Of a DNA stretch of 64,000 bases, positions 1 through 55,697 are shown in pieces. Origin of the DNA: Elusimicrobiota bacterium. Its GTDB lineage: Bacteria > Elusimicrobiota > Elusimicrobia > UBA1565 > UBA9628. Numbering within the stretch: position 1 is the first letter of the stretch; each line of letters starts with the position of its first letter. The position numbers were made by a program, and so were the translations under genes. The stretch is from assembly GCA_023249645.1 (NCBI GenBank), contig JAHFCF010000006.1:56124-120123 (forward strand), written 5' to 3'. The notes under the pieces were generated by a model, which had not been told where the DNA came from, searched no databases, and saw only the letters and a list, made by a program, of their open reading frames with translations.

Positions 1-344
1 GGCATCGGCCCCAGGATCCCGCAGGGCCTGGCTGGAGAGCCAGTTCTGGCAGAAGCGGCAGGAGAAGTTGCAGCCGAGCATGCCGAAGGAAAGGGCGCTC
101 TCTCCCGGCAGGACATGGAAGAAGGGTTTTTTCTCGATGGGATCGGCCTGCAGGCCGCAGACATAGCCGTCCGGGACCATGAGCTTGCCCTTCCGGTTGA
201 AGCGCACGCGGCAGATGCCGGTCTTGCCTTCCAGGATGCGGCATTCATGGCCGCAGGCCCAGCAGTGCAGCCGCCCATCGGGCTCCTTTTCGTAGAGTTC
301 GCCCTCTTGGGCAAGCTTCTGTACGGCTTCTTCCACGGAGGTCA
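1..344 (-). CDS. amrS: AmmeMemoRadiSam system radical SAM enzyme, N-terminal part only (gene runs past the window edge)
   Basis: Reverse complement of 1..344 translates as MTSVEEAVQKLAQEGELYEKEPDGRLHCWACGHECRILEGKTGICRVRF...SFGMLGCNFSCRFCQNWLSSQALRDPGADA, with the CxxxCxxC radical-SAM motif. Its ATG at 344 overlaps the stop of the upstream MEMO/AMMECR1 gene. It is missing from the ORF track only because the window edge truncates it. The + ORF 115..405 is its antisense shadow. Confidence 0.75.
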
Positions 345-1757
345 TTGTTCCTCGAAGGTCGAGACCCTGAAGATGGAGAGTGCGGCGTCGGGTCGCTTCC
401 AATAATCTGCGGGCAGGCCCGCCTTGTCCTGGCACAAAGACGACATGAACTCCTCTCGATCAGGGAGTTTTTCCCAAACCTGGGGCAAATAGAGTCCTTG
501 GCGGCCGCTTCTGCCGACGATCACGCCCAGGCCGGACGCGATCTCGTCGGGTTGGGCAGGCTGCGGCTCTGAGAGGATCGAGATCTCGGCGCGCAGATGG
601 GAGAGTTCTTCGTCATCGACAGAGGGGAAACGAGGATCTTCGAAAGCGCTGACCTGGGCATATCGGGCAACCGCGTTGGCTAAAGTATCCTGAGGAACGG
701 TTGTGCCGATGCAGCCGCGCAGTCCGCCATTCTTCGTCCAGGTGACGAAGACGGCGGCCGGGAGATTGAAACGGGGCCTGTCAAAGAGTCTGTGGGTGGA
801 TTTCCTTCCTTTCAAGCGGTCTCGCACGCTTTCGCGCGCCAAGGCCAAAAGCTCGGCTTTCTCCTTAGGCGTCAAGTCCTGTGTGGGCCAGGGCCGTCTT
901 TGACCGCGCTTCAGCAGAAGAGCGGCTCCGTAGCCCACGGTCCGCGACTCATCGCCCGCGAGGTCCGCCGAGTTCATGCAGGCCAGGGGCTCTCCCCAAT
1001 CAGAGCCGAGAGCGACGGCGGCGCTTTGGACGGCGGCGGCAGCCGACGAGCCGCACCAAGCGCAATGCAGGTCCGGGACCTGGAGCTTCATGAGGAATTC
1101 CTCCGTCTTGAAGAGGAACTTCGGGTCCAGGGTCAGGAAGCTCTCCAACGAGGCCGGGTCCACCTGCCGGGCGACGGAGAGCGGGGGATAGTGTGAAAGA
1201 TCGCTGGCCGCGAGGATGAGGGCCTTCTTGCCTTTGAGCGCCGCGGCCAAGGCCTGCCCGAAGCGTTGGGCTTCTGGAAGGCTCTGGCTGTTGGCCGCGA
1301 CGGGAATCAGCGAGAATCTTTTCTTGAAGGTTTTTTGGAGGAAGGGGAGCACGACCTCGATGGAGTGCTCCTCTTCATGGGCTTGGGCGGACAGCTGGGC
1401 TCCAGCCTTGAGGAGTTCGGCGTTTTCCGTTTGGGAGACCGGCACCTCGCCCAAAGGCGTGCGAAAAGCCGCGTGATCATCCAAAAAGAAGCCCTGGCTG
1501 GAGGCAAAATGCGCGGTGCCCACGATGGCGATGATGTCGGGTTCCAGGCCGGAGAGCGCGCGGCAGAGCCTGGCCGTGGCCGGGCCGGAGAATTCATGGC
1601 CCGCGTGGGGCGAGAGTCCGGCGATGATGCGGCCTTCGACGCGCTGCGCAGGCGCGTCATCGAGCATGCGTTGGACCATGGCGGAGAGCCGGGCAGGGTC
1701 TGCGGGATAGAACCGGCCGGCAGCGGCAGGGGGGCGTGCGCGGGGTTCAGCCATCAA
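342..1757 (-). CDS. Fusion protein: AmmeMemoRadiSam system protein B (MEMO1-like, N-terminal) plus AMMECR1 domain (AmrA, C-terminal)
   Basis: The N-terminus (RFYPADPARL...IAGLSPHAGHEFSG...LSHYPP) matches the MEMO1 family. The C-terminus (LPAAVFVTWTKNGGLRGCIGTTVP...FEDPRFPSVDDEEL...ISILSEP) matches the AMMECR1 signature LRGCIG. Linked radical SAM gene lies immediately downstream. Confidence 0.8.
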   Translation of the reverse strand: MMAEPRARPPAAAGRFYPADPARLSAMVQRMLDDAPAQRVEGRIIAGLSPHAGHEFSGPATARLCRALSGLEPDIIAIVGTAHFASSQGFFLDDHAAFRTPLGEVPVSQTENAELLKAGAQLSAQAHEEEHSIEVVLPFLQKTFKKRFSLIPVAANSQSLPEAQRFGQALAAALKGKKALILAASDLSHYPPLSVARQVDPASLESFLTLDPKFLFKTEEFLMKLQVPDLHCAWCGSSAAAAVQSAAVALGSDWGEPLACMNSADLAGDESRTVGYGAALLLKRGQRRPWPTQDLTPKEKAELLALARESVRDRLKGRKSTHRLFDRPRFNLPAAVFVTWTKNGGLRGCIGTTVPQDTLANAVARYAQVSAFEDPRFPSVDDEELSHLRAEISILSEPQPAQPDEIASGLGVIVGRSGRQGLYLPQVWEKLPDREEFMSSLCQDKAGLPADYWKRPDAALSIFRVSTFEEQ

Positions 1758-1832: not shown

Positions 1833-1887
1833 ACTGTGTCCGGACACAGTTGTTGGGCGCCAGTGGCCTACTGTGGTCGCCCACAGT
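1833..1887. repeat. Bipartite palindromic element: ACTGTGTCCGGACACAGT (1833-1850), 19-nt spacer, ACTGTGGTCGCCCACAGT (1870-1887); copy 1 of 5
   Basis: Two perfect or near-perfect 18-bp palindromes of the form CTGT-N8-ACAG. They sit between the amrB/A start and the end of gene 1914. The same pair recurs at 17089, 30383 and 60138, and a related single palindrome at 25153. Confidence 0.8.
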
Positions 1888-1913: not shown

Positions 1914-2486
1914 TCAAGTACGGGTCTTCAAGCGCAGGGACTTGAGCACAGACTCGAAAGCCGGCAGATCGTCCTTGTAATCCTGGCCCGCGGCCTTGAA
2001 TGCGAGCACGAGGAATCCTTGTTTCAAGGGCAGGATGACGCGGTCCTCGGTGATCAGCGCGTCGAAGGGGGGGAAGGCCGTGCCCGTGGGGATGTCCAGG
2101 GGTTCGATGCGGTGCTTGCGGGAGCTGACGATCCTCGTCGCCGCCCGGCCCGCGATCGTGATCATTCTGGGCTTGGAGACGCGCCAGGCCTTGTCCTGGC
2201 CCAATCGTGCCTGCAGCGTCAGGAGGTAGTCTTGCGCCCCGCTTTGATGGGGCAGGCGCGTGGGGCTGTATTCGTCTTCCGGATGCGTCTCGATGTGGAT
2301 GCCCGGCCGAAAGCCCCGGGTCTTTCCCGGACCCAGGAGACTGGCGAGGCCCTCTTCGACCGGCCCGACGATCCATGGGGCCGGCACGTCATAGGAATAG
2401 GGTGCGCCCTTCGGGCTCACGACAGCGGCCTGAGCCGCTCCGGCGAGGATCAGGACGGCCAGCCTAACGGATGCGGCAGGCAGCAT
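1914..2486 (-). CDS. Hypothetical secreted protein (N-terminal signal peptide)
   Basis: 190-aa ORF with a hydrophobic N-terminus (LAVLILAGAAQAAVV). It overlaps the stop of the upstream paralog gene by 23 nt. No recognisable domain. Confidence 0.45.
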   Translation of the reverse strand: MLPAASVRLAVLILAGAAQAAVVSPKGAPYSYDVPAPWIVGPVEEGLASLLGPGKTRGFRPGIHIETHPEDEYSPTRLPHQSGAQDYLLTLQARLGQDKAWRVSKPRMITIAGRAATRIVSSRKHRIEPLDIPTGTAFPPFDALITEDRVILPLKQGFLVLAFKAAGQDYKDDLPAFESVLKSLRLKTRT

Positions 2487-4197
2487 ATTCCCAGGTTAAA
2501 GGAGATTCCATCAGCATCTCGACCATGATCCTGTTTTTTTTGGCTTCATTGAGCTTGGGAGCCGCCAGCCGCATGGAGAGCTCATCATACTTGAGGCGCA
2601 TGTTCTGGATGCTTGGATCGCTTTTTTTGAGGGCTTCGCACTCCGCGTGTTTGGCGGACCGCCATTCATCATTGAGGTGGCGCGCCTCTTGGTCAAAGCG
2701 CTCATCGACGGCCAATTGCGCAAGCTTCTCCTCGTCCTTGTCTTGCCGAGCTGATTGCTTTTGCTGATCCAGCGTCACTTGGCCAGCCTGTATTTCCTTC
2801 TTTGGATCAGCGCCATAATACCTGGAAATGAGATCTGCTCGGAAATCAGCAGAGGAGTCTTGAAACTTGTGGAAAATGTCCATCTCTCCATCGGGAAGAA
2901 GGTGGCCGCGTTTTTCCTTGAGTGCGTCGATGGCTTTGCGGTCAGTCTCGATCTGCGAGGGTGCAAGAGGGGTTCCTGAACTCTGAAGATCCTCTTCGAG
3001 TGCTTGGATCTTTTCGTTTAATTCCTGCATTTTATTGGAATAATAACGGTACTCCATCATCCAGGCATAGGTTTCATTGGCGTATTCATTGGTTTTGGGG
3101 TATACATTGTTTCCTCCGCCATGGGATCTGACATGGACGTGGCCCGCTTCATGGAGGAATGTGGCCGCCAAACATTCAATGGAAAAACGTTCCTTGGAGA
3201 TGGCCTCGATCGGCCGGATGATGATTTTGTAGCGGACGGTGTAGTCTGCATTTCGGAGAAGCTGTCCGTTCTGGTCCTTGGCTGTCGTCGTGATCGCGAA
3301 GTTGGGCGATGCGGGGTCCCATTGGATGATGGTGTGATTGCTCGCTACGGCTTCGATGGCTCGCCGCGCATCGGCCAGGGCGATGAGGTCCGTGTGCGGC
3401 GGCCGGCCTGAATCCACGGGCACGGCATGGACGGCCTCCCGCATCAGGGCGAGGATGGAGGCGTCGTAGACCGTGGACAGGGAGTCGACCTGCTGGAGGA
3501 GTTGGGCCTTGATCTGGGCGGGCGTCTGGACTTCGAAAGGCGCATGATCGGATAGGAAGCTGGACTTAATCACCGGCCAGTCAACCGTGTTTTTTCGATC
3601 GGCGCCGTCGAAGTGCGCGGAGAGCAGATAGAAGGCATTCATGCTGGAGGCTTTGTCAATGCCGAGGGGTTGGGACATCCAGGCAGATTGAGCCAGATGC
3701 AGTCCGAATCTTTTGAGCGCCGCGTGCGCGCGCGCCAGGCGTTTCTGCAGGCGCTCTCTTTTGGCCCGGACCGGGAGGGCGGTCGCATCCGCGGCGTCGA
3801 TGATGAATCGCGCGGTCTGGGCCAGGGTGAGCTGCTCTTCGGGCTGGGACATGATGAACGCGACGCGCTTCATCCTCAGGTATTCTTCCGGCGAAAGGCC
3901 CGAGAGCGCTTGCTCGCAGGCGCGGCTCCAGTCTTTGTCCGTGAGGCCGATCGCCGGCGCTTCCTGCCGGTCATAGCGTTCCCGGCATTTTTCCTGCGCC
4001 ACGGCTAGGATGTCCGTGGAGAGCATGGTCCGGCATTGCCAGTCCCAGTCGGCTCGGGTCAGGCCGTAGGGGGCTTCGTAGGATTTCTTGTATCGGCTCG
4101 AGCATCCGGCGGGGTCGAACGGCTGCGCCCGCAGCGATGGCGCGGCCCAGAAGACTGCGAGAAGAAGAAAAAAGCGTTTAACGGATCCGGCAGGCAT
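2464..4197 (-). CDS. Secreted HExxH-motif protein, putative zinc metallopeptidase-like (paralog A of a tandem pair)
   Basis: 577 aa with signal peptide MPAGSVKRFFLLLAVFWAAPSLRAQ. Carries a duplicated N-terminal motif C..RY..x..Y.L.R..WD..C, an FLHEAGHVHV motif and a C-terminal EYAACRIR tail. Collinear with paralog B at HTDLIAL, NHTII, YYGADPKKE and ACRIR. Confidence 0.55.
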   Translation of the reverse strand: MPAGSVKRFFLLLAVFWAAPSLRAQPFDPAGCSSRYKKSYEAPYGLTRADWDWQCRTMLSTDILAVAQEKCRERYDRQEAPAIGLTDKDWSRACEQALSGLSPEEYLRMKRVAFIMSQPEEQLTLAQTARFIIDAADATALPVRAKRERLQKRLARAHAALKRFGLHLAQSAWMSQPLGIDKASSMNAFYLLSAHFDGADRKNTVDWPVIKSSFLSDHAPFEVQTPAQIKAQLLQQVDSLSTVYDASILALMREAVHAVPVDSGRPPHTDLIALADARRAIEAVASNHTIIQWDPASPNFAITTTAKDQNGQLLRNADYTVRYKIIIRPIEAISKERFSIECLAATFLHEAGHVHVRSHGGGNNVYPKTNEYANETYAWMMEYRYYSNKMQELNEKIQALEEDLQSSGTPLAPSQIETDRKAIDALKEKRGHLLPDGEMDIFHKFQDSSADFRADLISRYYGADPKKEIQAGQVTLDQQKQSARQDKDEEKLAQLAVDERFDQEARHLNDEWRSAKHAECEALKKSDPSIQNMRLKYDELSMRLAAPKLNEAKKNRIMVEMLMESPLTWEYAACRIR

Positions 4198-5959
4198 CGT
4201 AGCTCTCCATTAACTTGTTATAGGCGAGATTCAGTTGTGCCCCTCGTCGGTTGAGCGCGTTTTTTTGGGATTCCGATAGTCCGGGTTCATGGGTTCGGAT
4301 GACAATGATGTTGATCTTTTTTCTCAAGTCATTGACGACAGGATCGTTGATGAGCAGGGATCGGCATTCCTCTTTTTTGGCAGTGCGCCATTCTTGGTCG
4401 CGTTGGCGTGTTTCAGCTTCGAAGTCCTCATCCGTGGCCAGTTCTTTGAGCACGGCTGCGCTTTTGATGTCCAGCGCCCATTTTTTTTGCTGCAGGATCG
4501 TCACCTGGCCGGGAAAGATTTCATCTTCTTTGGGGTCAGTGCCATAGTAATCACGGATCATCTCTTCGCGAAACTCAGCAGGCGAGCTCTGGAATGTTTC
4601 CAGGCCGAGCATTTCGGTCTCTGGCATGAAATGGTCCCGCAGGCGTGTGAGCGCTGCAATGGTTTTTGTGAGGTGTTTGCGATCGACCCAAGTCAGAGGG
4701 CTTGGCGAATGGTCGAGATTTTGAGTCAGTCTTTTTATTTGTTCGTTGAACCTCTGGCGCTTGTTCGAGAAATAACGCGCTTCCATTTGATGGGCGTGTA
4801 TTTCATCCGTGTAATTGTTTTTTCCTCCTCCTTGAGCATTGAGATGCACATGGCCGCCGACTTCATGCAAAAGAACTCCAGCTAAAAATTCCAGCGGGTA
4901 ACGGCTCGTTGTGCAAGGCTCTCCGGGTTTGATGGATACTTGATAGCGCCAGGTGCCATCCGCGTTTTTTATCGCTGGGCGGGGTAGAGCTTTCTCTGGT
5001 TTATCTGATTCGGTGAACGTTGTGGCGTAGCTTTTTGATTTGCGGTTTAAAACGATGATGGTATGGTTTAAAATGATGGTTTCAATGGTGTCTTGGACAT
5101 CGGATAGGGCGATGAAGTCCGTGTGCGGCAGCAGCCCTGAGTTGATGGGCACGGAATCGACGAGTTCGCGCATCATGGCGATGATCAGGGGATCATAGGT
5201 CCGTCGGCCCTTTTCGTCTTTGAGCGTGTTCAGGGAGGATATTTGGGCCAGGAGACGAGTCTTGACTTGGAACGGGTCCGGGCGCGTCGGTGCGGCCAGG
5301 CGCGGGGCCGGGCGTTTGGACGCGAGAAAAATGGGGGAAAGCCTGGAGGGCGTCAGGCCGGCGTTGTCAAAGAAATGCGCTGCTTTCCGGTGGAATTCCT
5401 CCGAGGTCTTGGCTTGACCCATCTCGACGGGGAGCGCTCTCAAGTCCGACTCGGCCAAGGAATGTGAGAATCTTTGCCTGGCGGCTTCGGCTTGTTTGAG
5501 GCGGATATGCCACCGTGCCCTTTGTATCAGAATTTTTGGATCCTTCGAATCACTCGTGTCGAACATGAAATCGAAGACATCAGCCACGGTGATCTTATTG
5601 TCCGGCTTTGAGAGGAAACCCCGGATGCGCTGAGCCCGCAGGTATTGTTCCGGGGACACGAATTCCTTCTGCGCTTGATCGCAGTAATCGCGCTCCCACA
5701 TCTCCCTGGTCAGACCGATGTTCTTGCCCTCGTCAGGGTCGTATTTCGCCTTGCATATCTCCTGGGCGATGATCCGGATGTCCGCGGGGACCATCCCCTC
5801 TTCGCATTTGGAATCCCACTCCTCTCGGTTTAAGGAATAAGTCCGATAGGTGTCTTTATACCGTCGTTTGCAATCTTCGATATAGACGGGCGTGACCCCC
5901 CAGGCGCGCGGGGCCATGAGGATCGCGAGAAGGATCAAATAGCGCGCGTGGTTGTGCAT
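4178..5959 (-). CDS. Secreted HExxH-like-motif protein, paralog B of the tandem pair
   Basis: The ORF track gives 4178..6007. The start is more likely the ATG at 5959 (MHNHARYLILLAILMAPRAWG signal peptide, with an AGAGG RBS 10 nt upstream). Motifs: LLHEVGGHVHL, HTDFIAL, NHTII, YYGTDPKED, C-terminal SYDACRIR. Shares the N-terminal Cys-repeat module with paralog A. Confidence 0.55.
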   Translation of the reverse strand: MHNHARYLILLAILMAPRAWGVTPVYIEDCKRRYKDTYRTYSLNREEWDSKCEEGMVPADIRIIAQEICKAKYDPDEGKNIGLTREMWERDYCDQAQKEFVSPEQYLRAQRIRGFLSKPDNKITVADVFDFMFDTSDSKDPKILIQRARWHIRLKQAEAARQRFSHSLAESDLRALPVEMGQAKTSEEFHRKAAHFFDNAGLTPSRLSPIFLASKRPAPRLAAPTRPDPFQVKTRLLAQISSLNTLKDEKGRRTYDPLIIAMMRELVDSVPINSGLLPHTDFIALSDVQDTIETIILNHTIIVLNRKSKSYATTFTESDKPEKALPRPAIKNADGTWRYQVSIKPGEPCTTSRYPLEFLAGVLLHEVGGHVHLNAQGGGKNNYTDEIHAHQMEARYFSNKRQRFNEQIKRLTQNLDHSPSPLTWVDRKHLTKTIAALTRLRDHFMPETEMLGLETFQSSPAEFREEMIRDYYGTDPKEDEIFPGQVTILQQKKWALDIKSAAVLKELATDEDFEAETRQRDQEWRTAKKEECRSLLINDPVVNDLRKKINIIVIRTHEPGLSESQKNALNRRGAQLNLAYNKLMESYDACRIR

Positions 5960-6012
5960 GGAGAAGCCTCTATAAGGAAAGATAACAGAAGCAGTCACAT
6001 CGCGCATGAGCC

Positions 6013-6098
6013 AAAAGACCTAATTAGGTCTAGGTCCTTTTCCAGCCGCTTTCTAGGTCTAAAGCTCCAGAGAGATTGGAGGTCCGCTGAGCTATGAT
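6013..6098 (+). promoter_or_regulatory. Promoter region of gene 6134 with a CTAGGTC(C/T) motif array and a -10-like TATGAT (6093-6098)
   Basis: Contains aaaagacctaattaggtctaggtcctttt (including the perfect 16-nt palindrome agacctaattaggtct), ctttctaggtctaaagc and ggaggtccgc, followed by gctATGATgt and an RBS ggagcaagcc ahead of ATG 6134. Confidence 0.35.
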
Positions 6099-6133
6099 GT
6101 AGGCATGTTTGAAAACCGGCGCAGGAGCAAGCC

Positions 6134-7801
6134 ATGAAACGCTTCCTGGCCTTGGCTCTGAGCTTGACGCTATCCGGGATGCCTGTACGCGCCTTTGCCG
6201 TCGTGGTGCCTTCAGGGGTTGGCTCCACGCCGAGGCCATTCATCCTCGCCGGCCTTCGCGCTGATCTGACTGAGCCGCAGAAGCTCATCGCGCGGCAAGT
6301 GGACGCTGCCGTGGCTTCTCTCACGGCTGAGCAGCTCCGCGCGGCTCCGAGCTTGGCAAGATATCGGGGGATCGATTGGGGAGATCCGGGCTACAAGGCG
6401 ATGGCGCGCTACCTGGAATTCTCCATCCTGCCCCAGGATTCCAAACCGGAGGTCCTGGCCGTACGGCTGGAGGAAGCCCGCGCCGGGGCTGGCCAGGCGA
6501 TCCAGGAGCAGATCCGCAAGGCCTTGGAAGATCGGCTGGCGAACATGACTTTGGGGAATCAGGAAGAGGCCGCGGCAGTGCTCGCTGAGTTGGACCGGGA
6601 GATCGCGGAGTTAAAGCTTCGCCAGACGTTCCCGCAGGAGGTCTCTCTGGGCTTTTCACACGCCGCCCTTCGTGTCAATGAGATGCTGCTTCAGATCACC
6701 GCATCCCAGGCTGTGGAGGAGGTCGTCGCGGCGCCGATGCCGCAGGCTGAAGAACGGAGCCTGCTGTCGCTGCCGAAAGGTCCCGCCCCCGAGGTCGTGG
6801 AAGCTGAGATCGTTTCTCCACAGGATGAGTACAGGATCTTCGATAAAGTGCTTTCAGGCCGCAACATCAGCAGGCCTGCCAGCGACCAAGCCAAAGAGCG
6901 GGGCGTCTTTATTCAGAAAAATTATCACGGCGGTGTGGGACAAATCAAGCTCCCTGAGGAAGCCCGGTATGTCGTCTGGTCCGGGGACGGGGAAGAGGGA
7001 ATCTGGCGCAGAAAAGACGACGGTCGCTATGAGAAATTGTCCGCCACGACCATTGCTGATCTGGCGTTGTTGACAAGAAACTTCGCGAGTCAGAAGGCGT
7101 CTGCCCAAGATCAGGCGTTTAATGAAAGGATGTATACCTCAGACCTGGATCTTAGAAAAACAAAGTTCTTGGATGTTCGTGGCCAGGAAATCGAATACGC
7201 CCCATTCTTCATCGTTAAAACTGGTTTATGGAGGGTCAATGCGGCTGCTTACCAGCCACCGAAGCTGCTGAGACCGCTTACTCTCAAAAATCATCTGGCC
7301 GGTGGTTGGTTGAGCCTTACGCTGGCGGCATGGCCTGGTTTTTTCCTTAACCCGGACCTCTTCACCTTGGCCACGCAGGATTTTACGGTCCTTGGATTGC
7401 TTATTGCATCTGGTTGGGCAGGCACAATAATTGTTGGTTTCGTCTTGAAAAAAAGACTGACAAACGATGAACAAGAAAAATTGATTAAGGATAGCCTTCC
7501 AGCTGCTTTCAAGGCATGGGCTTGCACGGATGAGGGGCGGATCCGGGTTTTGCTAACGGCTGCCATGCTCCCATGGTTGGCCCCCGCTGTTGTTTTTGGA
7601 GCCGGTGCTTTTGCTTTATGGTTTCTGCCGCATATGTTGACGGCTTCTCTGGGGACCGGTGTGTATGCCGCTTATTGCGCGCTGCGCGCCGGCCGGAGCT
7701 ATCGGGAAATGACCCAACGCCTTACGGATTGGAAAAAGGCCCAGCTGGGATTTCAGCCGAACGCCAAGGGACTTCCTTATTCAAGGAGCAAGAAGTCATG
7801 A
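6134..7801 (+). CDS. Hypothetical signal-peptide protein with Gln/Glu-rich coiled-coil region and C-terminal transmembrane helices
   Basis: 555 aa with signal peptide MKRFLALALSLTLSGMPVRAFA. The C-terminal 150 aa are hydrophobic (LTLAAWPGFFL..., LGLLIASGWAGTIIVGFVL, LPWLAPAVVFGAGAFALWFL). Its stop overlaps the start of the M28 gene (ATGA). Confidence 0.5.
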   Translation: MKRFLALALSLTLSGMPVRAFAVVVPSGVGSTPRPFILAGLRADLTEPQKLIARQVDAAVASLTAEQLRAAPSLARYRGIDWGDPGYKAMARYLEFSILPQDSKPEVLAVRLEEARAGAGQAIQEQIRKALEDRLANMTLGNQEEAAAVLAELDREIAELKLRQTFPQEVSLGFSHAALRVNEMLLQITASQAVEEVVAAPMPQAEERSLLSLPKGPAPEVVEAEIVSPQDEYRIFDKVLSGRNISRPASDQAKERGVFIQKNYHGGVGQIKLPEEARYVVWSGDGEEGIWRRKDDGRYEKLSATTIADLALLTRNFASQKASAQDQAFNERMYTSDLDLRKTKFLDVRGQEIEYAPFFIVKTGLWRVNAAAYQPPKLLRPLTLKNHLAGGWLSLTLAAWPGFFLNPDLFTLATQDFTVLGLLIASGWAGTIIVGFVLKKRLTNDEQEKLIKDSLPAAFKAWACTDEGRIRVLLTAAMLPWLAPAVVFGAGAFALWFLPHMLTASLGTGVYAAYCALRAGRSYREMTQRLTDWKKAQLGFQPNAKGLPYSRSKKS

Positions 7802-9033
7802 GAATCTCCCTTAGTCTTCTCATCCTCTGTTCCGGGATCGCGTCTGCTGCTTCAGTTCCCGGAGAGAATTTCAAAAAGCCTCCGGTCGGCGCCGAGTTCC
7901 ATGGCAGCGGCGTGCCCGTGCCGCCCGTCCCGATAGCCCCGGCCACGCTCAAATCCGACGCGCCGGGAGCGCCTGCCCCCGACCAAGTCCCCGGTCCCTT
8001 GCCCGCGCCGGCAGTGCCGGCCCCGGTTCCTGTTCCCGTCCCTGAGAAAAAGCCGGTCGCCCCTCATTCTGGCTTGGCCTCGGTCGTTCCTCCGACGATC
8101 AATGCCCAGGACGTGCAGAAGGTCCAGGCCGATCTCACCGCCCTTTACGACAAGGGCCGCCTGACAGATGCCTCCATCGAGAGCTTCGTCGCATCCGTTC
8201 AGGGGACCCTCTCCCGGCACGGCCGCCCGGCGGTCCTGCGGCCCGAAGGCATGCCCACGGACGACCAGGTGGATCAGAATATGAGGAGCGCGCCCATGCG
8301 CTACGAAGACCGCCTGGCCATGGTCGCCGAGATCTTGACAAAGAATGCCGGGGTCAAGCCCGAAGAGCTCGTCTACCAGGACGTGGACGGACAGAAGAAC
8401 ATCTACTGGGTCAAGAAGGGGAGCACGGATCGGGTCATCGTCATCGGTTCGCACCACGACAAGGTGGATGGGCCGAGCCACGGCACCATCGACAATTGGA
8501 CGGGGAGCATGATCATGGCCCATCTCTCTCAGGTCATGCGGGAGTTGGACACGGAGGCCACCTATATCTTCGCCAGCTTCGCGCGCGAGGAGGATGGGCT
8601 GCTGGGCTCGGCCCAGTTCGTGCGGTCGCTGGCGCAGGATGCGAAGCAGAAGATCAATGCCATGCTCAACTTCGACACCTTGGCCGTGGACGGCACCTAC
8701 ACTTTGAAGAACACTCCTCCCTGGAGGATCTATTCCTCACAGCTTCTGCTTGACCTTTTCAGGAAGGTCGCGGAGGCTGAGAAGCTGCCTCTCGAAGAGG
8801 TGGAGCTCGAAGGCGGGGACGCGGACTCAAGCTCGTTTAAGGAATTCACCCACGCCATCACCGTCTTGGGCGCCAGGCCGCCGGGGATCTTCGACAAGAT
8901 CCATTCGGCGGCGGACAACATGTCGGAGTTCTCCCTGCCGCACTACATCAACGCCCTCAAGCTGGGCGTGGCTGTGCTGATGTACTTGAATCACCATGCC
9001 CTTCCGCCTTTCGAGGCCGCTGCCAGGAGTTGA
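7797..9033 (+). CDS. M28 family zinc aminopeptidase, secreted, with Pro/Ala-rich linker
   Basis: The ORF-track start at 7573 is an upstream extension. The likely start is ATG 7797 (MRISLSLLILCSGIASAASVP). M28 ligand motifs are present: GSHHDKVDG (HxD), DNWTG, AREEDGLLGS (EE), NFD, and a C-terminal His. Confidence 0.7.
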
Positions 9034-9683
9034 TCATGCCCGCCATCCCCCGCATCCGATCCATCGATTTCCTCTCGCCGCAACCGGCCGACCCCAGTTC
9101 CGGAGAAGCCGAGATCAGGGTCACCCTGGAGGATGGAAGCTCGTCGGCTTTCGGCATCCTCACTCCCGACCGGGTGGCGCTGGGCATGGCTGAGGCGGGC
9201 AAGGATTACTCCTTCGGCTCGCCGACGCTTTTCCTCAAACGCTTGGACCAGGACTGCCTGGGCAAGGCGGCCGAGGCCATGGCCGGCCGCATGGGAGGGT
9301 TCTGGCTGAGGTATTACAACTCCAAGCCTCTGGCGGCCGGGCAGGTCAAGAAGCTGCGCGTGGGCTCCGTCGAGCTTTCCGACATCGAGCCGAAGAAGGG
9401 TCCGACCCATGGCAGCGCCGCGGTCCAGGTGAAGCTCTCGGATGAAAGGCAATTCTCCATCCTCGCGGCCACTCCCGGTTGGTTCGTGGAGGCCTTGGAT
9501 AAGCTCGGGCTGGAGTTCTATTTCGGCCCCTGCGTCCTTTTTCTGAGCTCCCTGCAGGCCGACCTGGCGCGTGCGGCCGTCGCCCAGATGATCAAGGGCG
9601 GCGACCAGCGCCTGTGCCGCTACGACACGCCGCGCCTGACCCTGCCGCAGGTCCTCGCCGACTTCAAGGCGAAGTCCGCCTAG
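9030..9683 (+). CDS. Hypothetical protein, third gene of the M28 operon
   Basis: 217-aa ORF whose TTG/ATG start overlaps the stop of the M28 gene. GC3-rich coding. No recognisable domain. Confidence 0.45.
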   Translation: MIMPAIPRIRSIDFLSPQPADPSSGEAEIRVTLEDGSSSAFGILTPDRVALGMAEAGKDYSFGSPTLFLKRLDQDCLGKAAEAMAGRMGGFWLRYYNSKPLAAGQVKKLRVGSVELSDIEPKKGPTHGSAAVQVKLSDERQFSILAATPGWFVEALDKLGLEFYFGPCVLFLSSLQADLARAAVAQMIKGGDQRLCRYDTPRLTLPQVLADFKAKSA

Positions 9684-9783
9684 GTCCTCGGTCCGCCAAA
9701 GGGCCTATTTCAAGCTAGGTCCAAAGACGGCTCTTTTCTGGGTCCAAAGGTCCAAGGCGGCTGGGAGGCCTTGTCGATATAAT
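9680..9783 (+). promoter_or_regulatory. Promoter region of the M48 protease gene: repeated (C/G)TAGGTCC and GGTCCAAAG motifs and a TATAAT -10 (9778-9783)
   Basis: Sequence ctaggtcctcggtccgccaaagggcctatttcaagctaggtccaaagacgg...gggtccaaaggtccaagg...gtcgaTATAATgg. ATG 9796 lies 13 nt after the -10, so the leader is short or absent. Confidence 0.4.
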
Positions 9784-9795
9784 GGTCTCATTATT

Positions 9796-12660
9796 ATGAT
9801 GAAGAAATTTCTCGCTTCCTTTATTGCCGCCGTCCTCATCGTGACCGCTCCCGGCCTTTCCTCGTATGCCGCGGCGGCAGGTGTTTTTGGGAAGTCATGG
9901 CCCATCGGTCCGGGAGGCAGGATCATCGGCCCGGTAGGCGGGCACATAGCCGTGTCTGCCCCTCAGAAGGATTTCCGTATTTTTTCTCTGGAGGCCGAGA
10001 GCCAGTATTCTCCAGCGCCTGGTTGGACTGATCAGGCGGCTTTTACGGGTCGACCTCTCCCAGCTGATCAGCCTTCTCATGAGCCGTTGAAGCGGATATT
10101 GTCAGGCCAGGTGACGCTCGCTACCCCTGATGCGCACAGGCCTGTGGCTGGACTGCGGACCTGGGCCGCTGATGCGATGGACCGCCTCTTAGGCCTGGCC
10201 CCGCAGCGCTCTGCGCCAGACGAGACCCGGGCGCTTGCTGATTCCCAGGAGCCGGCTCCAGCGGCTTCTGCCAAGTTGGGGAGATCATCTTCCCTTACCC
10301 CTGAACAAGCCCCTGAGCTTGCTCAGGTGCCTGCGCCGGTCTTTGAGTCCCGCACCATGATCGTGGTCCGCATCGGTGTCGTCGCCGGGGCCGTGGTCGG
10401 TCTGCAGGCCTTGCTGCCCGCGGCTTTGGGCGCGGTCTCCGTGGCCGCGGTCTGGGCCGTGAGCCCGGGGATATTCCTGTTGCCCGTCGCCCTTTACGCC
10501 CGCCATCGCCTCGCTGCGCGCGACTCGCCGCGCCTGAGCAGCGTCAAGCGGCTGATGGATGGAGCCGTCGGCGCGTTCATCGGCGCCGCCATCGTCGCCG
10601 GCGTCTTCGCTTCCCCGAGCCTAGGACTCCTCTTGGCCGTCAAGCAGCTCGCCTTTGCCGGCCTGCCTTTGGCCTCCCTGGCCGTGGGCCGCGCTCTGTC
10701 CAACGTGACGACCCTGCCTGATTCCGCCGGGACCTACGCGATTTTGGCCATCCTGCCGGGCCTCCTGGGCGCGACAGCGGCCGGTCCCATCGGCCTGGTG
10801 CCCGTGCTGGGAATGCTGGCGCTCGCCGCCATGACGACCATCTCCTTCTGCCTTGGCCGCATCATTGCCGCGGCTGAGTCGGGCAGGCCGTTCTCGGTCC
10901 CCGGCTCCATACAGAAGATGCGTTTCCCTGTCAGCCAGTGGGTCATGCTCGGTGTGATCTTCGCCACTTGGTCCGGGCTCAAGGAGGTCTATGCCAATCA
11001 GGTTTTTTGGGCGTGGCAGATCCTCGGGTCGAGGACCTTCGCGTGGCAGAAGGACGCTCCGCTCTGGAAGAACCTTGTCTACAATCTGGCCAACTTCAAC
11101 GTCCTCTATGCGGGGCTCCTGGCTTTCGTGATCGTGACATTTTTCATGGCCGGGGCTTTGAGCCCCCTGACCTTCCTGGCCTTGGCCTTCGCGCCTGAGC
11201 GAGCGGCTCTAGCGGCGGAGGCGCTCTTGGGCAAGCTTCTGCCCAAGTCCGAACCGGCGCCATCGACGGGCGTCGAGCCAGTGGCTGATCCCTCCACGAC
11301 GGCTGATGAGCCCGTGAAGCGGCCTCAGTTCCATTATTGGCTCAAGACCCTCTCGGCTGTCGCCTCCATCGCCGTCCTGGGCCTGTGCCTGGGGACTTGG
11401 GCGTATACCTGGAAGAACTTCGCCAAGACTTTCGGCATGGCTTCTCTGATGGCCATCGGGCAGTTTTTCGGCTCCAAATATCTCATCAAGCGCCTCATGA
11501 ACACGACTCCGGCCGATGAGAAGAATAAGGATGATCAGAAGGTCTTCGCTGTCCGCAACGATCTGATGCGGCGCATCAACGACGGCCGCGTGCGCAGGGG
11601 CAAGAAGCCCATCGACGACGCTCACCGGCCCGAGCTCGTGGATGATCCCAACCTTCTTCCCAACGCCTATGCCACGGGCTGGGGTCCTTCCCATGCTCTG
11701 ATCGGCGTGACCAAGGGCATCAAGCTGATGCTCTTGGATCCGGAGAATCTGCGCCAGGGGCTTTTGCGGCTCATGGCTTCCTGCGACGCGGAGACCAAGG
11801 CCTTCAAGCTCTTCCGGGCCGCCATCGCCGGCTCGCTGGGCAAGGACCGGATCCCGCCGGAGGCCTCGCCCTCGCAGGTGGCCGAGGCTGTCCAAAGCGC
11901 TCCTGCTGAGGCTCTCGATCTCCTGGGCGTGCGCGTCCTGCGCGGGGTGATGGCTCACGAGCTCAACCATGTGATGGATTGGCACATGGCGATCGGCGCG
12001 GCCGCCGGGGCTTTCACCTCGGCTCTGTCCATGGCGAGCTGGTCGGCCATGTGGCTCGTGGGAAAGTTCAAAGACCTGCCAAAAAAGCTGGAGGCTTGGG
12101 CCGCGGAGCCCCGGCCGTTCACTCCCATCGACCGGGTCAAGACCTGGGGGCTGCAGAGCGCCCAAGCCGTGGCTGAGCCCGTGTCCGTGGTCGTGGTCGG
12201 CGGGGCGATCGCGGTACTGGCCGTGATCAAGGCCTTCGCCATCGTCTGGGGGCCCCTGGCCGCCATTCTTTTGCAGATGGCTTCTTCGCGGGCTGATGAG
12301 GGCATGGCTGATGAGGACGGGGCCAAGCTGTCCGGTGATCCAGAAGCCCTGGGCCTGGGCTTGGGTCTGCTGATGACCTGGCAGCCGCCGAAAGGCTTTC
12401 AGGTGGATAACTTGGCGGTCATCGCGCTCAATGCGCACCGCTACACGGTCAATCCTCTCGAGCAGATGCGCAACGCCGGGGTCTTGCCCCGCTTAAGCCG
12501 CCTGGCCGAAGCGCTCGCGGGCGGCAGCGACGACTTCTTCTTCAACCTCTTCGTCACGCATCCGGACACTCTGCTGCGCATCATGCGGCTGCGCGACATG
12601 ATGTCGCGCATCGACAGGCTTTCCGGAAAGTCCGTCGATGCGGGGCGGCTCAAGCCATGA
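9796..12660 (+). CDS. M48-family (HtpX/Ste24-like) zinc metalloprotease with ~550-aa polytopic N-terminal membrane domain
   Basis: 954 aa with a signal peptide, then about 10 hydrophobic segments. The C-terminal half carries M48 motifs in canonical order: NAYATGWG (NAFATG-like), VMAHELNHVMDWH (HExxH) and FVTHPDTLLRI (HPxxxxRI). Confidence 0.65.
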   Translation: MMKKFLASFIAAVLIVTAPGLSSYAAAAGVFGKSWPIGPGGRIIGPVGGHIAVSAPQKDFRIFSLEAESQYSPAPGWTDQAAFTGRPLPADQPSHEPLKRILSGQVTLATPDAHRPVAGLRTWAADAMDRLLGLAPQRSAPDETRALADSQEPAPAASAKLGRSSSLTPEQAPELAQVPAPVFESRTMIVVRIGVVAGAVVGLQALLPAALGAVSVAAVWAVSPGIFLLPVALYARHRLAARDSPRLSSVKRLMDGAVGAFIGAAIVAGVFASPSLGLLLAVKQLAFAGLPLASLAVGRALSNVTTLPDSAGTYAILAILPGLLGATAAGPIGLVPVLGMLALAAMTTISFCLGRIIAAAESGRPFSVPGSIQKMRFPVSQWVMLGVIFATWSGLKEVYANQVFWAWQILGSRTFAWQKDAPLWKNLVYNLANFNVLYAGLLAFVIVTFFMAGALSPLTFLALAFAPERAALAAEALLGKLLPKSEPAPSTGVEPVADPSTTADEPVKRPQFHYWLKTLSAVASIAVLGLCLGTWAYTWKNFAKTFGMASLMAIGQFFGSKYLIKRLMNTTPADEKNKDDQKVFAVRNDLMRRINDGRVRRGKKPIDDAHRPELVDDPNLLPNAYATGWGPSHALIGVTKGIKLMLLDPENLRQGLLRLMASCDAETKAFKLFRAAIAGSLGKDRIPPEASPSQVAEAVQSAPAEALDLLGVRVLRGVMAHELNHVMDWHMAIGAAAGAFTSALSMASWSAMWLVGKFKDLPKKLEAWAAEPRPFTPIDRVKTWGLQSAQAVAEPVSVVVVGGAIAVLAVIKAFAIVWGPLAAILLQMASSRADEGMADEDGAKLSGDPEALGLGLGLLMTWQPPKGFQVDNLAVIALNAHRYTVNPLEQMRNAGVLPRLSRLAEALAGGSDDFFFNLFVTHPDTLLRIMRLRDMMSRIDRLSGKSVDAGRLKP

Positions 12661-54282: not shown

Positions 54283-54356
54283 ACCGATCGATTGCGGGAT
54301 GGTGAAATGGTATCACGGGTGGCTCTGAACCACTTATTCTAGGTTCGAATCCTAGT
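54283..54356 (+). tRNA. tRNA-Gln (anticodon CUG)
   Basis: Folded by hand. Acceptor TGCGGGA/TCCCGCA with U1-A72 and G73 (Gln identity). D-arm GTGA/TCAC. Anticodon stem GGTGG/CCACT with loop CTCTGAA. T-arm CTAGG-TTCGAAT-CCTAG. CCA encoded. Confidence 0.85.
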
Positions 54357-54386
54357 CCCGCAGCCACTTTAGTCGTTATAAGGACT

Positions 54387-54434: not shown

Positions 54435-55697
54435 ATGTTTCGGTTCGCGTTGGGCCTCGCGCTTCTCTTCCCGTTGATCGGCTGCTCCGGCACGCAGCTA
54501 CGGGAGGAGGAACGCCAACCTGTCCGCCTCGATATCGGGCTCATGCCCCTCCTCAGCAGCGGCGCTCCCGTTGAGCCGAAAGACACCGACACCCTCATCG
54601 CGCGGCTCCAAGCCATGAGCATCTTCGATTCGGTCCGCTCGGTCGACTCGTCACACTCTCCCGATGTCGATCTGGTTCTTGCGCTGGAGGCGCACCTGGC
54701 CTCGGTGTCTCTGCGCATCTATGGAGCGGCTTCCCAGGAACAACTCTACGTCGGGAAGCTCCGGATGGACTGGAACGCCGATTACGGCATCAATGCCGTC
54801 TATGTGGCGCGGGAAATCATCGGGAAGTTCGGCCCCGGAACGCCGGAATTCAAAAAACTCATCGCCGCCCGCGCGACGCGTCCCGCGCGGCAAGCGCCCG
54901 GTCTCGAAACCCCCCATCTGTTCCAATCGGACATCGACCGGCCGGGCTACCGCATGGCCGAACACCCCGACGATTTCGCCCTTGTCGTGGGGGTCGAGAA
55001 GTATTCGGACCTGCCGGAGGCCCGGTTCGCTGGACGTGACGCTGAGGCGGCCAAGGACCACTTGCTGGCTCTTGGCTTCCCGAGCCGGAACATCGTCCAA
55101 TTGAGCGACGACAAGGCCGGCTACAAGAGCATCGAAAAATATCTGGAAACCTGGCTGCCCCGGAACAGCAACGAGAACAGCCGCGTCTTCTTCTACTTCT
55201 CGGGCCATGGCGCCCCGGATGTGCGGACTGGGCAGGCATATCTTCTCCCCTGGGACGGAGACCCGGGCTTCCTGGAGACAACCGGCTATCCGGTCAAGCG
55301 TCTCTATGAGAAATTGTCCACGCTCAAGGCCAAAGAGGTCATCGTGGCTTTAGACGCCTGCTTCTCGGGGGCGGGCGGACGGTCGGTCCTGGCCAAAGGG
55401 GCTCGGCCTTTGGTTATGAAGGTGGACACCGCGACAGCGCCTCAAAACCTGACCGTGTTCGCAGCGGCCTCGGGCGAACAAATCACCAGCACGCTCGAAG
55501 ACCAGGGGCACGGGACCTTCACCTACTACTTCCTGAAAGGCTTGAGTGGTGGAGCCAAGGACGCCTCCGGACGGGTCACGACGCAGGCCCTTTACGACTA
55601 CCTCAAGCCCAAGGTGCAGGACGCGGCCCGGCGGCAGAACCGAGACCAGGAGCCGGTCCTGCACGGCCAAGGCGACCGGGAACTCGTTCGGTTCTGA
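54435..55697 (+). CDS. Caspase-like (peptidase C14 family) lipoprotein
   Basis: Lipobox LIGCSG. C14 catalytic dyad context: FFYFSGHGAPD (His) and VALDACFSGAGG (Cys). 420 aa. Confidence 0.65.
   Translation: MFRFALGLALLFPLIGCSGTQLREEERQPVRLDIGLMPLLSSGAPVEPKDTDTLIARLQAMSIFDSVRSVDSSHSPDVDLVLALEAHLASVSLRIYGAASQEQLYVGKLRMDWNADYGINAVYVAREIIGKFGPGTPEFKKLIAARATRPARQAPGLETPHLFQSDIDRPGYRMAEHPDDFALVVGVEKYSDLPEARFAGRDAEAAKDHLLALGFPSRNIVQLSDDKAGYKSIEKYLETWLPRNSNENSRVFFYFSGHGAPDVRTGQAYLLPWDGDPGFLETTGYPVKRLYEKLSTLKAKEVIVALDACFSGAGGRSVLAKGARPLVMKVDTATAPQNLTVFAAASGEQITSTLEDQGHGTFTYYFLKGLSGGAKDASGRVTTQALYDYLKPKVQDAARRQNRDQEPVLHGQGDRELVRF

What the first reader, a model, noticed from the sequence alone, without database searches (positions are those of the whole stretch)
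1914..5959. Tandem paralogous secreted proteins sharing an HExxH motif, an N-terminal Cys-repeat module and an ACRIR C-terminal tail
The two adjacent minus-strand genes (2464-4197 and 4178-5959) encode proteins of about 580-600 aa that have diverged strongly overall. They still keep these collinear features:
- a duplicated N-terminal motif (C..RY....Y.L.R..WD..C, twice in each protein);
- HTD(L/F)IAL;
- NHTII;
- FLHEAGHVHV in A versus LLHEVGGHVHL in B, a zincin-like HExxH with a one-residue insertion in B;
- YYG(A/T)DPK(K/E);
- an identical terminal pentapeptide ACRIR-stop.
A tail this short that survives such divergence suggests a C-terminal sorting, processing or anchoring signal rather than chance. 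The pair is co-transcribed with a third small secreted protein (1914-2486). I do not recognise the family.
Basis: seen in the sequence. Interest (0 to 1): 0.65.

Follow-up and report, generated by a model that had tools for sequence, protein, structure and literature searches.

The report
Duplicated exported HExxH protein with partner
Two neighbouring genes are diverged copies of an unannotated, exported, probably zinc-dependent protease-like protein that is always made together with a small partner protein, and their identical five-residue tail is explained by a conserved cysteine plus an overlap with the start of the next gene rather than by a sorting signal.

Summary
Genes A (2464-4197, minus strand) and B (4178-5959, minus strand) are full-length paralogs (38% identity, E 7e-122). 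All listed motifs are present.

They belong to a very small family with no Pfam, NCBIfam or PDB sequence match. An exhaustive search of 1.84 billion representatives found 16 proteins. The lineage is probably Elusimicrobiota.

The sorting-signal idea is not supported. Only Cys-x-[Val/Ile]-x is conserved in the tail. That cysteine is present or absent together with Cys520, which suggests a disulfide.

The tail DNA also encodes the start codon and first codons of the next gene. The ribosome-binding site lies just upstream, in the big gene's preceding codons. A 20-26 nt overlap with a homologous small exported partner (gene C) occurs in all six partner-bearing loci.

Gene A's first seven codons look like gene C's. 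This marks the endpoint of a tandem duplication.

This is a new unannotated family of modest interest.

The parts
4178..5959 (-). Gene B, 593 aa. Exported HExxxH (HEVGGH) paralog and 5' copy of the tandem pair, with the ancestral-type N-terminus MHNHARYLILL.
   Evidence: ORF. The exact product is in the public collection. An AGAGG ribosome-binding site lies 8 nt before the ATG at 5959. 38% identical to A.
2464..4197 (-). Gene A, 577 aa. Exported HExxH (HEAGH) paralog and 3' copy. Its first 7 codons resemble the partner gene's start.
   Evidence: Nucleotides 1-21 are 86% like C's nt 1-24, and nt 22-75 are 67% like B's nt 16-69. AlphaFold model with pLDDT 85.2.
1914..2486 (-). Gene C, 190 aa. 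Small exported partner protein with no family annotation.
   Evidence: Homologs at 23-39% identity lie directly downstream of the big gene, overlapping it, in L001, L002, L047, L048 and L049.
4178..4197 (-). B/A overlap of 20 nt, ATGCCTGCCGGATCCGTTAA. It encodes ..DACRIR-stop in B's frame and MPAGSVK in A's frame.
2464..2486 (-). A/C overlap of 23 nt, ATGCTGCCTGCCGCATCCGTTAG. It encodes ..YAACRIR-stop in A's frame and MLPAASVR in C's frame.
   Evidence: The same 23-26 nt overlap is present in five homolog loci.
4203..4208 (-). GGAGAG ribosome-binding site for gene A, formed by B's conserved M-E-S codons, 5 nt before A's ATG.
   Evidence: A GGAG lies 4-8 nt upstream of the partner ATG in all five homolog junctions.
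3133..3153 (-). A residues 349-355, HEAGHVH, the candidate metal-binding and catalytic motif.
   Evidence: H349 and H353 are invariant, and E350 is kept in 12 of 14 members. The motif lies in predicted helix 340-360.
4844..4867 (-). B residues 365-372, HEVGGHVH, the one-residue-longer HExxxH variant.
   Evidence: The same variant is found in P0006, P0014, P0008 and P0009.
3064..3120 (-). A residues 360-378, GGG...N...NE..A. Invariant Asn370 and Glu375, the candidate third metal ligand, sit at the start of the next helix.
4793..4831 (-). B residues 377-389, GGGKNNYTDEIHA, the equivalent segment in B.
3916..4104 (-). A's two N-terminal Cys-bounded modules, residues 32-55 and 71-94.
   Evidence: pLDDT is above 90 in the model.
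5681..5872 (-). B's two N-terminal Cys-bounded modules, residues 30-52 and 69-93.
2638..2667 (-). A residues 511-520, EWRSAKHAEC. Cys520 is the inferred disulfide partner of tail Cys574.
   Evidence: The two cysteines are present together or absent together across the family.
4364..4393 (-). B residues 523-532, EWRTAKKEEC, the equivalent cysteine in B.
1833..1850 (-). Hairpin ACTGTGTCCGGACACAGT followed by a T-run, 64 nt after C's stop. A possible end of the B-A-C transcript.
   Evidence: This is a consensus match only.

Best explanation
B, A and C form one translationally coupled operon. It encodes two diverged copies of an unannotated exported protein and one copy of its conserved small exported partner.

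The large protein has five parts:
- a Sec-type signal peptide;
- two (in one homolog four) about 24-residue modules, each bounded by two cysteines;
- a helical domain and a disordered linker;
- a catalytic core with gluzincin-like anatomy: backing helix, small beta-sheet, a helix carrying HExxH (A) or HExxxH (B), then a helix starting with an invariant (N/D)E glutamate;
- a C-terminal helical bundle, probably closed by a disulfide between Cys520 and the tail cysteine.

The most likely activity is zinc-dependent peptide hydrolysis in the periplasm or outside the cell.

Partner C is made in a fixed ratio. Its ribosome-binding site, ATG and first 6-8 codons lie inside the last 10 or so codons of the big gene. 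I judge it most likely to be a cognate inhibitor or safety-catch for the protease (about 0.35), or otherwise a chaperone or adaptor (about 0.25).

The identical ACRIR tail has two causes:
- a protein-level need for Cys-x-[V/I] at the C-terminus;
- dual-coding and initiation-site constraints on the same DNA.

The window has two copies because a tandem duplication ran from the signal-peptide region of the big gene to the signal-peptide region of C. This gave A a C-like start and recreated the coupled junction between B and A.

Shown: paralogy, family conservation, the overlaps, partner conservation and the predicted fold.
Inferred: metal binding, proteolysis, the disulfides, export and the partner's role.
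For: Paralogy and duplication:
- A and B are 38% identical over their full length.
- They are each other's closest relatives, at 47% identity in the core.
- A's nt 1-21 are 86% like C's start but 50% like B's. A's nt 22-75 are 67% like B's.

Family:
- The exhaustive profile search found only 16 representatives.
- There is no Pfam, NCBIfam, PADLOC or PDB sequence hit.

Active site:
- H349, H353, N370, E375 and R384 are invariant in all 14 members that carry the domain.
- The model has pLDDT 85.2 and pTM 0.81. It shows helix 271-286, strands 290-293, 301-305 and 323-327, helix 340-360 with HExxH, and helix 371-406 with E375.
- In BFVD the only high-probability hits are IrrE and SprT-like zincins.
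- Sub-threshold Pfam hits to SprT-like and BSP fall on the motif.
- HExxxH is a working zinc site in DPP III (HELLGH) and TldD (HEAIGH) (PMC3268031 and PMC3497727).

Tail:
- Homolog tails keep only C-x-[V/I]-x.
- Cys520 and the tail Cys are both present in 10 members and both absent in 3.
- P0008, P0009 and P0014 keep the tail without any overlapping downstream gene.

Coupling:
- A 20-26 nt overlap with the ATG at a fixed place occurs in all 7 junctions. GGAG lies 4-8 nt upstream in six of them; the window's own A/C junction has only GGGA 2 nt before the ATG.
- Partner homologs are present in 6 of 6 loci of that clade.
Against: - No significant sequence or Foldseek match to any peptidase. The best Foldseek result against PDB has E 0.3.
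- Two family members have HGxxGH without the catalytic Glu, so some members may not be enzymes.
- The model rests on only 15 sequences.
- Model coordinates could not be read, so Cys-Cys distances and metal-site geometry are unchecked.
- Nothing is known about the partner's fold. Its profile finds nothing in Pfam or PDB.
- The A/C junction has only a weak, badly spaced GGGA before the ATG, because of an A-specific insertion.
Confidence: 0.6

Rival explanations
1. The ACRIR tail is a dedicated C-terminal sorting, processing or anchoring signal read by a specific machinery.
For: The tail is one of only two fully identical pentapeptides between A and B. A C-x-[V/I]-x ending recurs in 10 family members, including three without gene overlap.
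Against: - Only Cys and one aliphatic residue are conserved.
- The distance to the C-terminus varies from 3 to 4 residues, or about 8-11 in the P0013/L058 clade.
- The tail Cys is present or absent together with an upstream Cys, as expected for a disulfide.
- From general knowledge, known bacterial C-terminal signals (LPXTG, PEP-CTERM, GlyGly-CTERM, the type IX secretion domain) are 20-80 residues long with a hydrophobic helix or a folded domain. Nothing like that is here.
- In the 64 kb window the only other ORFs with such an ending are a cytoplasmic methyltransferase and a 108-aa overlapping frame.
- No sortase-like gene was found in the window.
Confidence: 0.08
2. The conserved core is a zincin-like fold used for something other than peptide hydrolysis. 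It could be an Fe/alpha-ketoglutarate oxygenase like the RiPP HExxH hydroxylases, or a non-catalytic binding protein.
For: - One member gives a sub-threshold hit to TIGR04267.
- HExxH proteins with oxygenase chemistry exist (PMC12636437).
- P0008 and P0009 lack the catalytic Glu.
Against: - The TIGR04267 hit covers 22 residues at 14.6 bits against a cut-off of 40, so it is motif-level only.
- The proteins carry signal peptides and paired cysteines, so they work outside the cytoplasm, where alpha-ketoglutarate is not expected (inference).
- No RiPP precursor, radical SAM gene or transporter lies nearby.
- A, B and 10 other members keep the Glu, plus an invariant downstream Glu typical of gluzincins.
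Confidence: 0.15
3. The C-x-[V/I]-x ending is a CaaX-type prenylation box used after delivery into a eukaryotic host cell.
For: Eight of ten tails have Cys exactly four residues from the end with V or I at the third position. From general knowledge, some bacterial effectors use host prenylation.
Against: - Two tails have five residues, CRVSP and CRVRR.
- From general knowledge, the last residues (R, D, N) are not those preferred by farnesyl or geranylgeranyl transferases.
- The proteins have Sec signal peptides and three conserved Cys pairs.
- Cys520 is present or absent together with the tail Cys.
- The distant clade extends past the Cys by about 8-11 residues.
Confidence: 0.02
4. The tail identity is purely a nucleotide-level by-product of the overlap (start codon, ribosome-binding site, partner signal peptide) or of gene conversion between the two junctions. 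The big protein's C-terminus has no role of its own.
For: - The tail DNA is dual-coding in every partner-bearing locus.
- It is 16/18 nt identical between the junctions.
- The partner N-termini are themselves conserved as M-x-P/I-A-A.
Against: - Three members with no overlapping downstream gene still end in CGIR, CLVR or CRVR.
- Both nucleotide differences between the two window junctions are silent in the tail frame but change the residue in the downstream frame: G/A and K/R.
Confidence: 0.12

Closest known systems
Gluzincin metallopeptidases (MEROPS clan MA(E), e.g. thermolysin M4, M48, minimal gluzincins)
   Different: There is no significant sequence or Foldseek match to any family. The core is embedded in a novel architecture of Cys-bounded N-terminal repeats, long helical domains and a C-terminal Cys pair. 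Activity is untested.
Dipeptidyl peptidase III (M49, HELLGH) and TldD (HEAIGH): HExxxH zinc sites
   Same: B, P0006 and P0014 carry HE-x-x-G-H with a one-residue insertion and a Gly before the second His. This is the same as the working zinc sites of DPP III and TldD (PMC3268031 and PMC3497727).
   Different: No sequence relationship. In DPP III the third ligand is 52 residues downstream in an EExxAE motif, whereas here it is about 16 residues downstream. In this family the insertion comes and goes between close relatives.
Alpha-ketoglutarate-dependent HExxH peptide hydroxylases of RiPP pathways (TIGR04267 / IPR026337, ChlH, PflC)
   Different: Below the family threshold, at 14.6 bits against 40, in one member only. 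Those enzymes are cytoplasmic and sit in RiPP gene clusters (PMC12636437). These proteins are exported and have no such neighbours.
Secreted metalloprotease plus cognate periplasmic inhibitor operons (e.g. serralysin-type protease with Inh/AprI), recalled from general knowledge
   Same: An exported metalloprotease-like protein is encoded next to a small signal-peptide-bearing protein and made together with it.
   Different: No homology to those proteases or inhibitors. The inhibitor role of C is only a hypothesis. Coupling here works through a conserved 20-26 nt overlap.

Membership tests
Zincin / gluzincin metallopeptidase | HExxH motif on an alpha-helix, with two His as metal ligands and Glu as the general base | tested here: met
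   A has HEAGH in predicted helix 340-360. Both His residues are invariant, and Glu is kept in 12 of 14 members. B has the HExxxH variant.
Zincin / gluzincin metallopeptidase | Third metal ligand Glu on a following helix | tested here: inconclusive
   The invariant Glu375 in the (N/D)E motif sits at the start of helix 371-406. Its geometry could not be checked because model coordinates were not readable.
Zincin / gluzincin metallopeptidase | Fold of backing helix, mixed beta-sheet and active-site helix, similar to solved zincins | tested here: inconclusive
Zincin / gluzincin metallopeptidase | Binds zinc and hydrolyses peptide bonds | not testable with these tools
   This needs biochemistry.
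Any curated peptidase family (Pfam-A 2025, NCBIfam r20) | Score above the family's gathering threshold | tested here: not met
   No hit for A or B. Across all 15 members only sub-threshold motif-level hits appear: SprT-like E 0.0026, BSP E 0.011, TIGR04267 E 0.025.
Alpha-ketoglutarate HExxH hydroxylases (TIGR04267) | Match to the TIGR04267 domain model, with cytoplasmic RiPP cluster context | tested here: not met
   14.6 bits against a cut-off of 40, covering 22 residues, in 1 of 15 members. No RiPP-type neighbours.
DPP III (M49) | HELLGH plus EExxAE about 52 residues downstream | tested here: not met
   B has HEVGGH, but the only invariant Glu is about 16 residues downstream. There is no EExxAE motif and no sequence match.
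Known C-terminal sorting signals (sortase LPXTG, PEP-CTERM, GlyGly-CTERM, type IX CTD) | A signature motif followed by a hydrophobic helix and basic tail, or an 80-residue folded domain, with the cognate sorting enzyme in the genome | tested here: not met
   The tail is 4-5 polar or basic residues after a Cys, with no hydrophobic segment. No sortase-like gene lies in the 64 kb window. The rest of the genome was not available.
CaaX prenylation box | Cys exactly four residues from the C-terminus in a cytosolic protein, with aliphatic a2 and X from the preferred set | tested here: not met
   8 of 10 tails fit C-x-[V/I]-x, but 2 have five residues and the final residue is mostly R, D or N. The proteins carry signal peptides and paired cysteines.
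DcrB / PsbP-like fold (idea for partner C, from memory) | Detectable profile similarity to DcrB | tested here: not met
   hhalign of the partner family against E. coli DcrB gives probability 0.3% over 13 columns. No Pfam or PDB hit.

The most novel reading that the evidence does not exclude
A and B define a new, lineage-restricted family of exported metallopeptidases. The family repeatedly switches between HExxH and HExxxH metal sites, in at least three lineages and here within one tandem pair. It works as an obligate pair with a small exported partner made by translational coupling. That would be a previously undescribed protease-inhibitor or toxin-immunity type of module. The C-terminal Cys would serve a structural or regulatory role: a disulfide staple or, less likely, a zinc-capping latency switch.
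Probability: 0.35. Interest if true: 0.5.

Novelty: new variant of a known kind. Interest (0 to 1): 0.35.

Why it matters
If the biochemistry holds, this adds an unclassified peptidase family from a poorly studied phylum, probably Elusimicrobiota.

It also offers a natural side-by-side pair, A with HExxH and B with HExxxH. That pair could show how a one-residue insertion in a zinc-binding helix is tolerated.

The conserved coupled partner gives a direct route to finding what controls the enzyme.

The case is also a useful caution. A short, strikingly conserved C-terminal peptide can reflect an overlapping start region of the next gene rather than a targeting signal.

Tried and rejected
- **Word-index homolog search:** with A and with the 15-sequence profile it returned only the query itself. 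It was useful only for the partner family.
- **Degenerate-pattern scans:** scans of GTDB genomes, JGI metagenomes and viral contigs with the A/B alignment found no relatives. Alignments A2 and A4 were too divergent for that tool. My own DNA pattern for HExxH-x6-GGG-x-N-x3-(N/D)E found one more member, L058.
- **First AlphaFold run:** with two sequences it was unusable, at pLDDT 48.
- **Structure and sequence searches:** Foldseek against PDB and BFVD gave nothing significant. The afdb50 library was unavailable. Profile searches against PDB sequences found nothing.
- **PADLOC:** no defence-system hit.
- **DcrB/PsbP-like idea for the partner:** not supported by hhalign.
- **L050:** the HExxH protein upstream of the partner-like P0021 matches the family only at the motif.
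- **L053:** the gene downstream of P0014 is not partner-like.
- **Readings considered and rejected:** a CaaX box, known sorting signals and membership of the alpha-ketoglutarate HExxH family. Details are in the membership tests.
- **Not possible:** model coordinates are not exposed, so Cys-Cys distances and a domain-only fold search could not be done.

Full report
**1. The observation**

The three minus-strand ORFs exist as described: B 4178-5959 (593 aa), A 2464-4197 (577 aa) and C 1914-2486 (190 aa). Exactly these products are present in the public protein collection.

A and B align over their whole length at 38% identity, E 7e-122. The Cys-bounded N-terminal module occurs twice in each protein.

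The ACRIR identity is not trivial:
- Only two of 495 ungapped pentapeptide windows are fully identical between the paralogs, NHTII and ACRIR.
- The tail DNA is 16/18 nt identical against 55% overall.

**2.

- B's last 20 nt, ATGCCTGCCGGATCCGTTAA, are also A's first 20 nt. They read ..DACRIR-stop in one frame and MPAGSVK in the other.
- A's last 23 nt, ATGCTGCCTGCCGCATCCGTTAG, are C's first 23 nt. They read ..AACRIR-stop and MLPAASVR.
- No alternative start codon would preserve the signal peptides of A or C, as read.

**3. Family and lineage**

A, B and C have no Pfam, NCBIfam or PADLOC hit. They also have no sequence match in the PDB.

An exhaustive HMM search of 1.84 billion representative proteins found 16 proteins in total. 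One further member was recovered from JGI metagenomes with a hand-made DNA pattern.

The lineage is probably Elusimicrobiota:
- The window's DNA polymerase I is closest, at 59%, to an Elusimicrobia MAG.
- The one named homolog locus (L002, GCA_016212795.1) is annotated as Elusimicrobia bacterium.

The rest of the window is ordinary chromosome, carrying PolA, Rho, MurA, RF, PurL and other housekeeping genes.

**4. The catalytic core**

Across the 14 members that contain the domain, His349, His353, Asn370, Glu375 and Arg384 (A numbering) are invariant. Glu350 is kept in 12.

With the 15-sequence alignment AlphaFold gave a confident model, pLDDT 85.2 and pTM 0.81. The order of elements in the core is:
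- helix 271-286;
- strands 290-293, 301-305 and 323-327;
- helix 340-360, carrying HExxH;
- a Gly-rich loop;
- helix 371-406, beginning with the invariant (N/D)E.

From general knowledge, this is the gluzincin layout.

Fold-search results:
- Foldseek against the PDB was not significant.
- Against viral models the only high-probability hits were IrrE and SprT-like zincins.
- Sub-threshold Pfam hits to SprT-like and BSP sit on the motif.

I take this as reasonable but unproven support for a zincin-like metallohydrolase.

**5. HExxH versus HExxxH**

B's one-residue insertion (HEVGGH) also occurs in P0006, P0014, P0008 and P0009. On a distance tree these lie in at least three separate lineages, while A and B are each other's closest relatives. 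The insertion has therefore arisen or been lost repeatedly.

HE-x-x-G-H is a working zinc site in DPP III (HELLGH) and TldD (HEAIGH) (PMC3268031 and PMC3497727). B therefore need not be inactive.

P0008 and P0009 have lost the Glu (HGVGGH) and may be non-catalytic.

**6. The tail at protein level**

Homolog tails read CRVD, CRVN, CSVF, CRVSP, CRVRR, CGIR, CLVR and CRVR. Only the Cys and the aliphatic residue two positions later are conserved.

The tail Cys and Cys520, in a conserved WR-x6-C motif, are both present in 10 members and both absent in P0012, P0015 and P0017. P0013 and L058 have a displaced pair. This is the pattern expected of a disulfide. The mature proteins otherwise carry two conserved Cys pairs in the N-terminal modules.

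Three members with no overlapping downstream gene (P0008, P0009, P0014) still keep the tail. The Cys-x-[V/I] ending is therefore selected in the protein itself.

**7. The tail at DNA level**

In all six loci of the A/B/P0004-7/P0010 clade, the big gene is followed by a homolog of C at 23-39% identity. Its ATG lies 20-26 nt before the big gene's stop.
- The ATG is formed by the [Y/H/N] and following codons.
- A GGAG 4-8 nt upstream is formed by the conserved M-E-[S/N] codons in six of the seven junctions. The window's A/C junction has only a GGGA 2 nt before the ATG.
- TGCCGC (Cys-Arg) reads as Ala-Ala in the partner's signal peptide.

So the last 10 or so codons of the big gene double as the translation-initiation region of the partner. 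Together with point 6, this explains the exceptional conservation.

**8. Duplication history**

A's first 21 nt match C's start at 86% but B's at only 50%. From nt 22 on, A matches B at 67%. A's N-terminus MPAGSVKR looks like partner N-termini (MLPAASVR, MAPAASVL, MPPAAFAA) and unlike those of other family members.

The simplest history is a tandem duplication whose endpoints lay in the signal-peptide regions of the big gene and of C. It produced B (original 5' end), A (C-like start fused in frame) and an intact C, and it copied the coupled junction.

This inference is not independent of the tail conservation. It is the same DNA read in the other frame.

**9. Mechanism proposed**

The most likely mechanism is an exported, disulfide-stabilised, zinc-dependent peptidase made together with a small exported partner.

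I consider a cognate inhibitor or safety-catch the most likely partner role, then a chaperone or adaptor. There is no direct evidence. The partner's profile finds nothing in Pfam or PDB, and a remembered resemblance to DcrB/PsbP-like proteins failed an hhalign test.

**10. Rivals**

- **Dedicated sorting signal:** unlikely, for the reasons in points 6 and 7. The tail is also nothing like known signals, and no sortase-like gene is in the window. The other two frames in the window with such an ending are a cytoplasmic methyltransferase and a 108-aa overlapping frame.
- **CaaX-type box:** fits 8 of 10 tails in form but conflicts with the signal peptides, the Cys pairing and the terminal residues.

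**11. Verdict**

The metalloprotease-like reading is moderately supported. The sorting-signal reading is replaced by a disulfide cysteine plus a dual-coding coupled junction.

This is an unannotated, lineage-restricted family with a known kind of active site in a new architecture. It is of modest interest, mainly as a candidate new peptidase family with a natural HExxH/HExxxH pair and an obligate partner.

Noticed in passing
window 6016-6031 (and 6037-6061): A perfect 16-bp palindrome, AGACCTAATTAGGTCT, sits in the 174-bp divergent region between gene B and the plus-strand gene at 6134. It is flanked by further GACCTAG repeats. It could be an operator for the B-A-C operon or its divergent neighbour.
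   Followed up: no
window 4178-7801: B (GC3 0.63), A (0.69) and the divergent 555-aa exported or membrane protein at 6134-7801 (0.63) have clearly lower third-position GC than neighbouring genes (0.75-0.91). This suggests a different expression level or more recent arrival.
   Followed up: partly
window 6134-12660: Next to the operon lies a plus-strand run rich in exported peptidases: an unknown 555-aa protein, an M28 peptidase (7573-9033), an unknown 217-aa protein, and a 954-aa membrane protein with a C-terminal M48 peptidase domain. This neighbourhood is not conserved in homolog loci.
   Followed up: partly
L050 2-1781: A more distant partner-like protein (P0021, E 1e-10 to the partner profile) lies about 100 nt downstream of a different HExxH protein (LFVHEANH). 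That protein matches the family only at the motif. The upstream ORF's 3' end looks frameshifted.
   Followed up: partly
L051 2227-4422: A weak partner-like, membrane-anchored protein (P0022, E 6e-3) sits between a PrsW-family protease gene and a trypsin-like protease gene. This may hint that this small-protein family accompanies proteases more generally.
   Followed up: no
P0006 (L002 8001-10091) and P0016: The Cys-bounded N-terminal module is mobile. P0006 carries extra copies and has 12 cysteines in the mature region. P0016, 253 aa, shares only this module with an unrelated C-terminal part.
   Followed up: partly
window 54435-55697: A 420-aa protein with a caspase (Peptidase_C14) domain lies directly after the single tRNA-Gln gene at 54293-54366.
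   Followed up: no
window 342-1757: A single 471-aa ORF fuses a Memo-like domain and an AMMECR1 domain, directly downstream of the operon.
   Followed up: no
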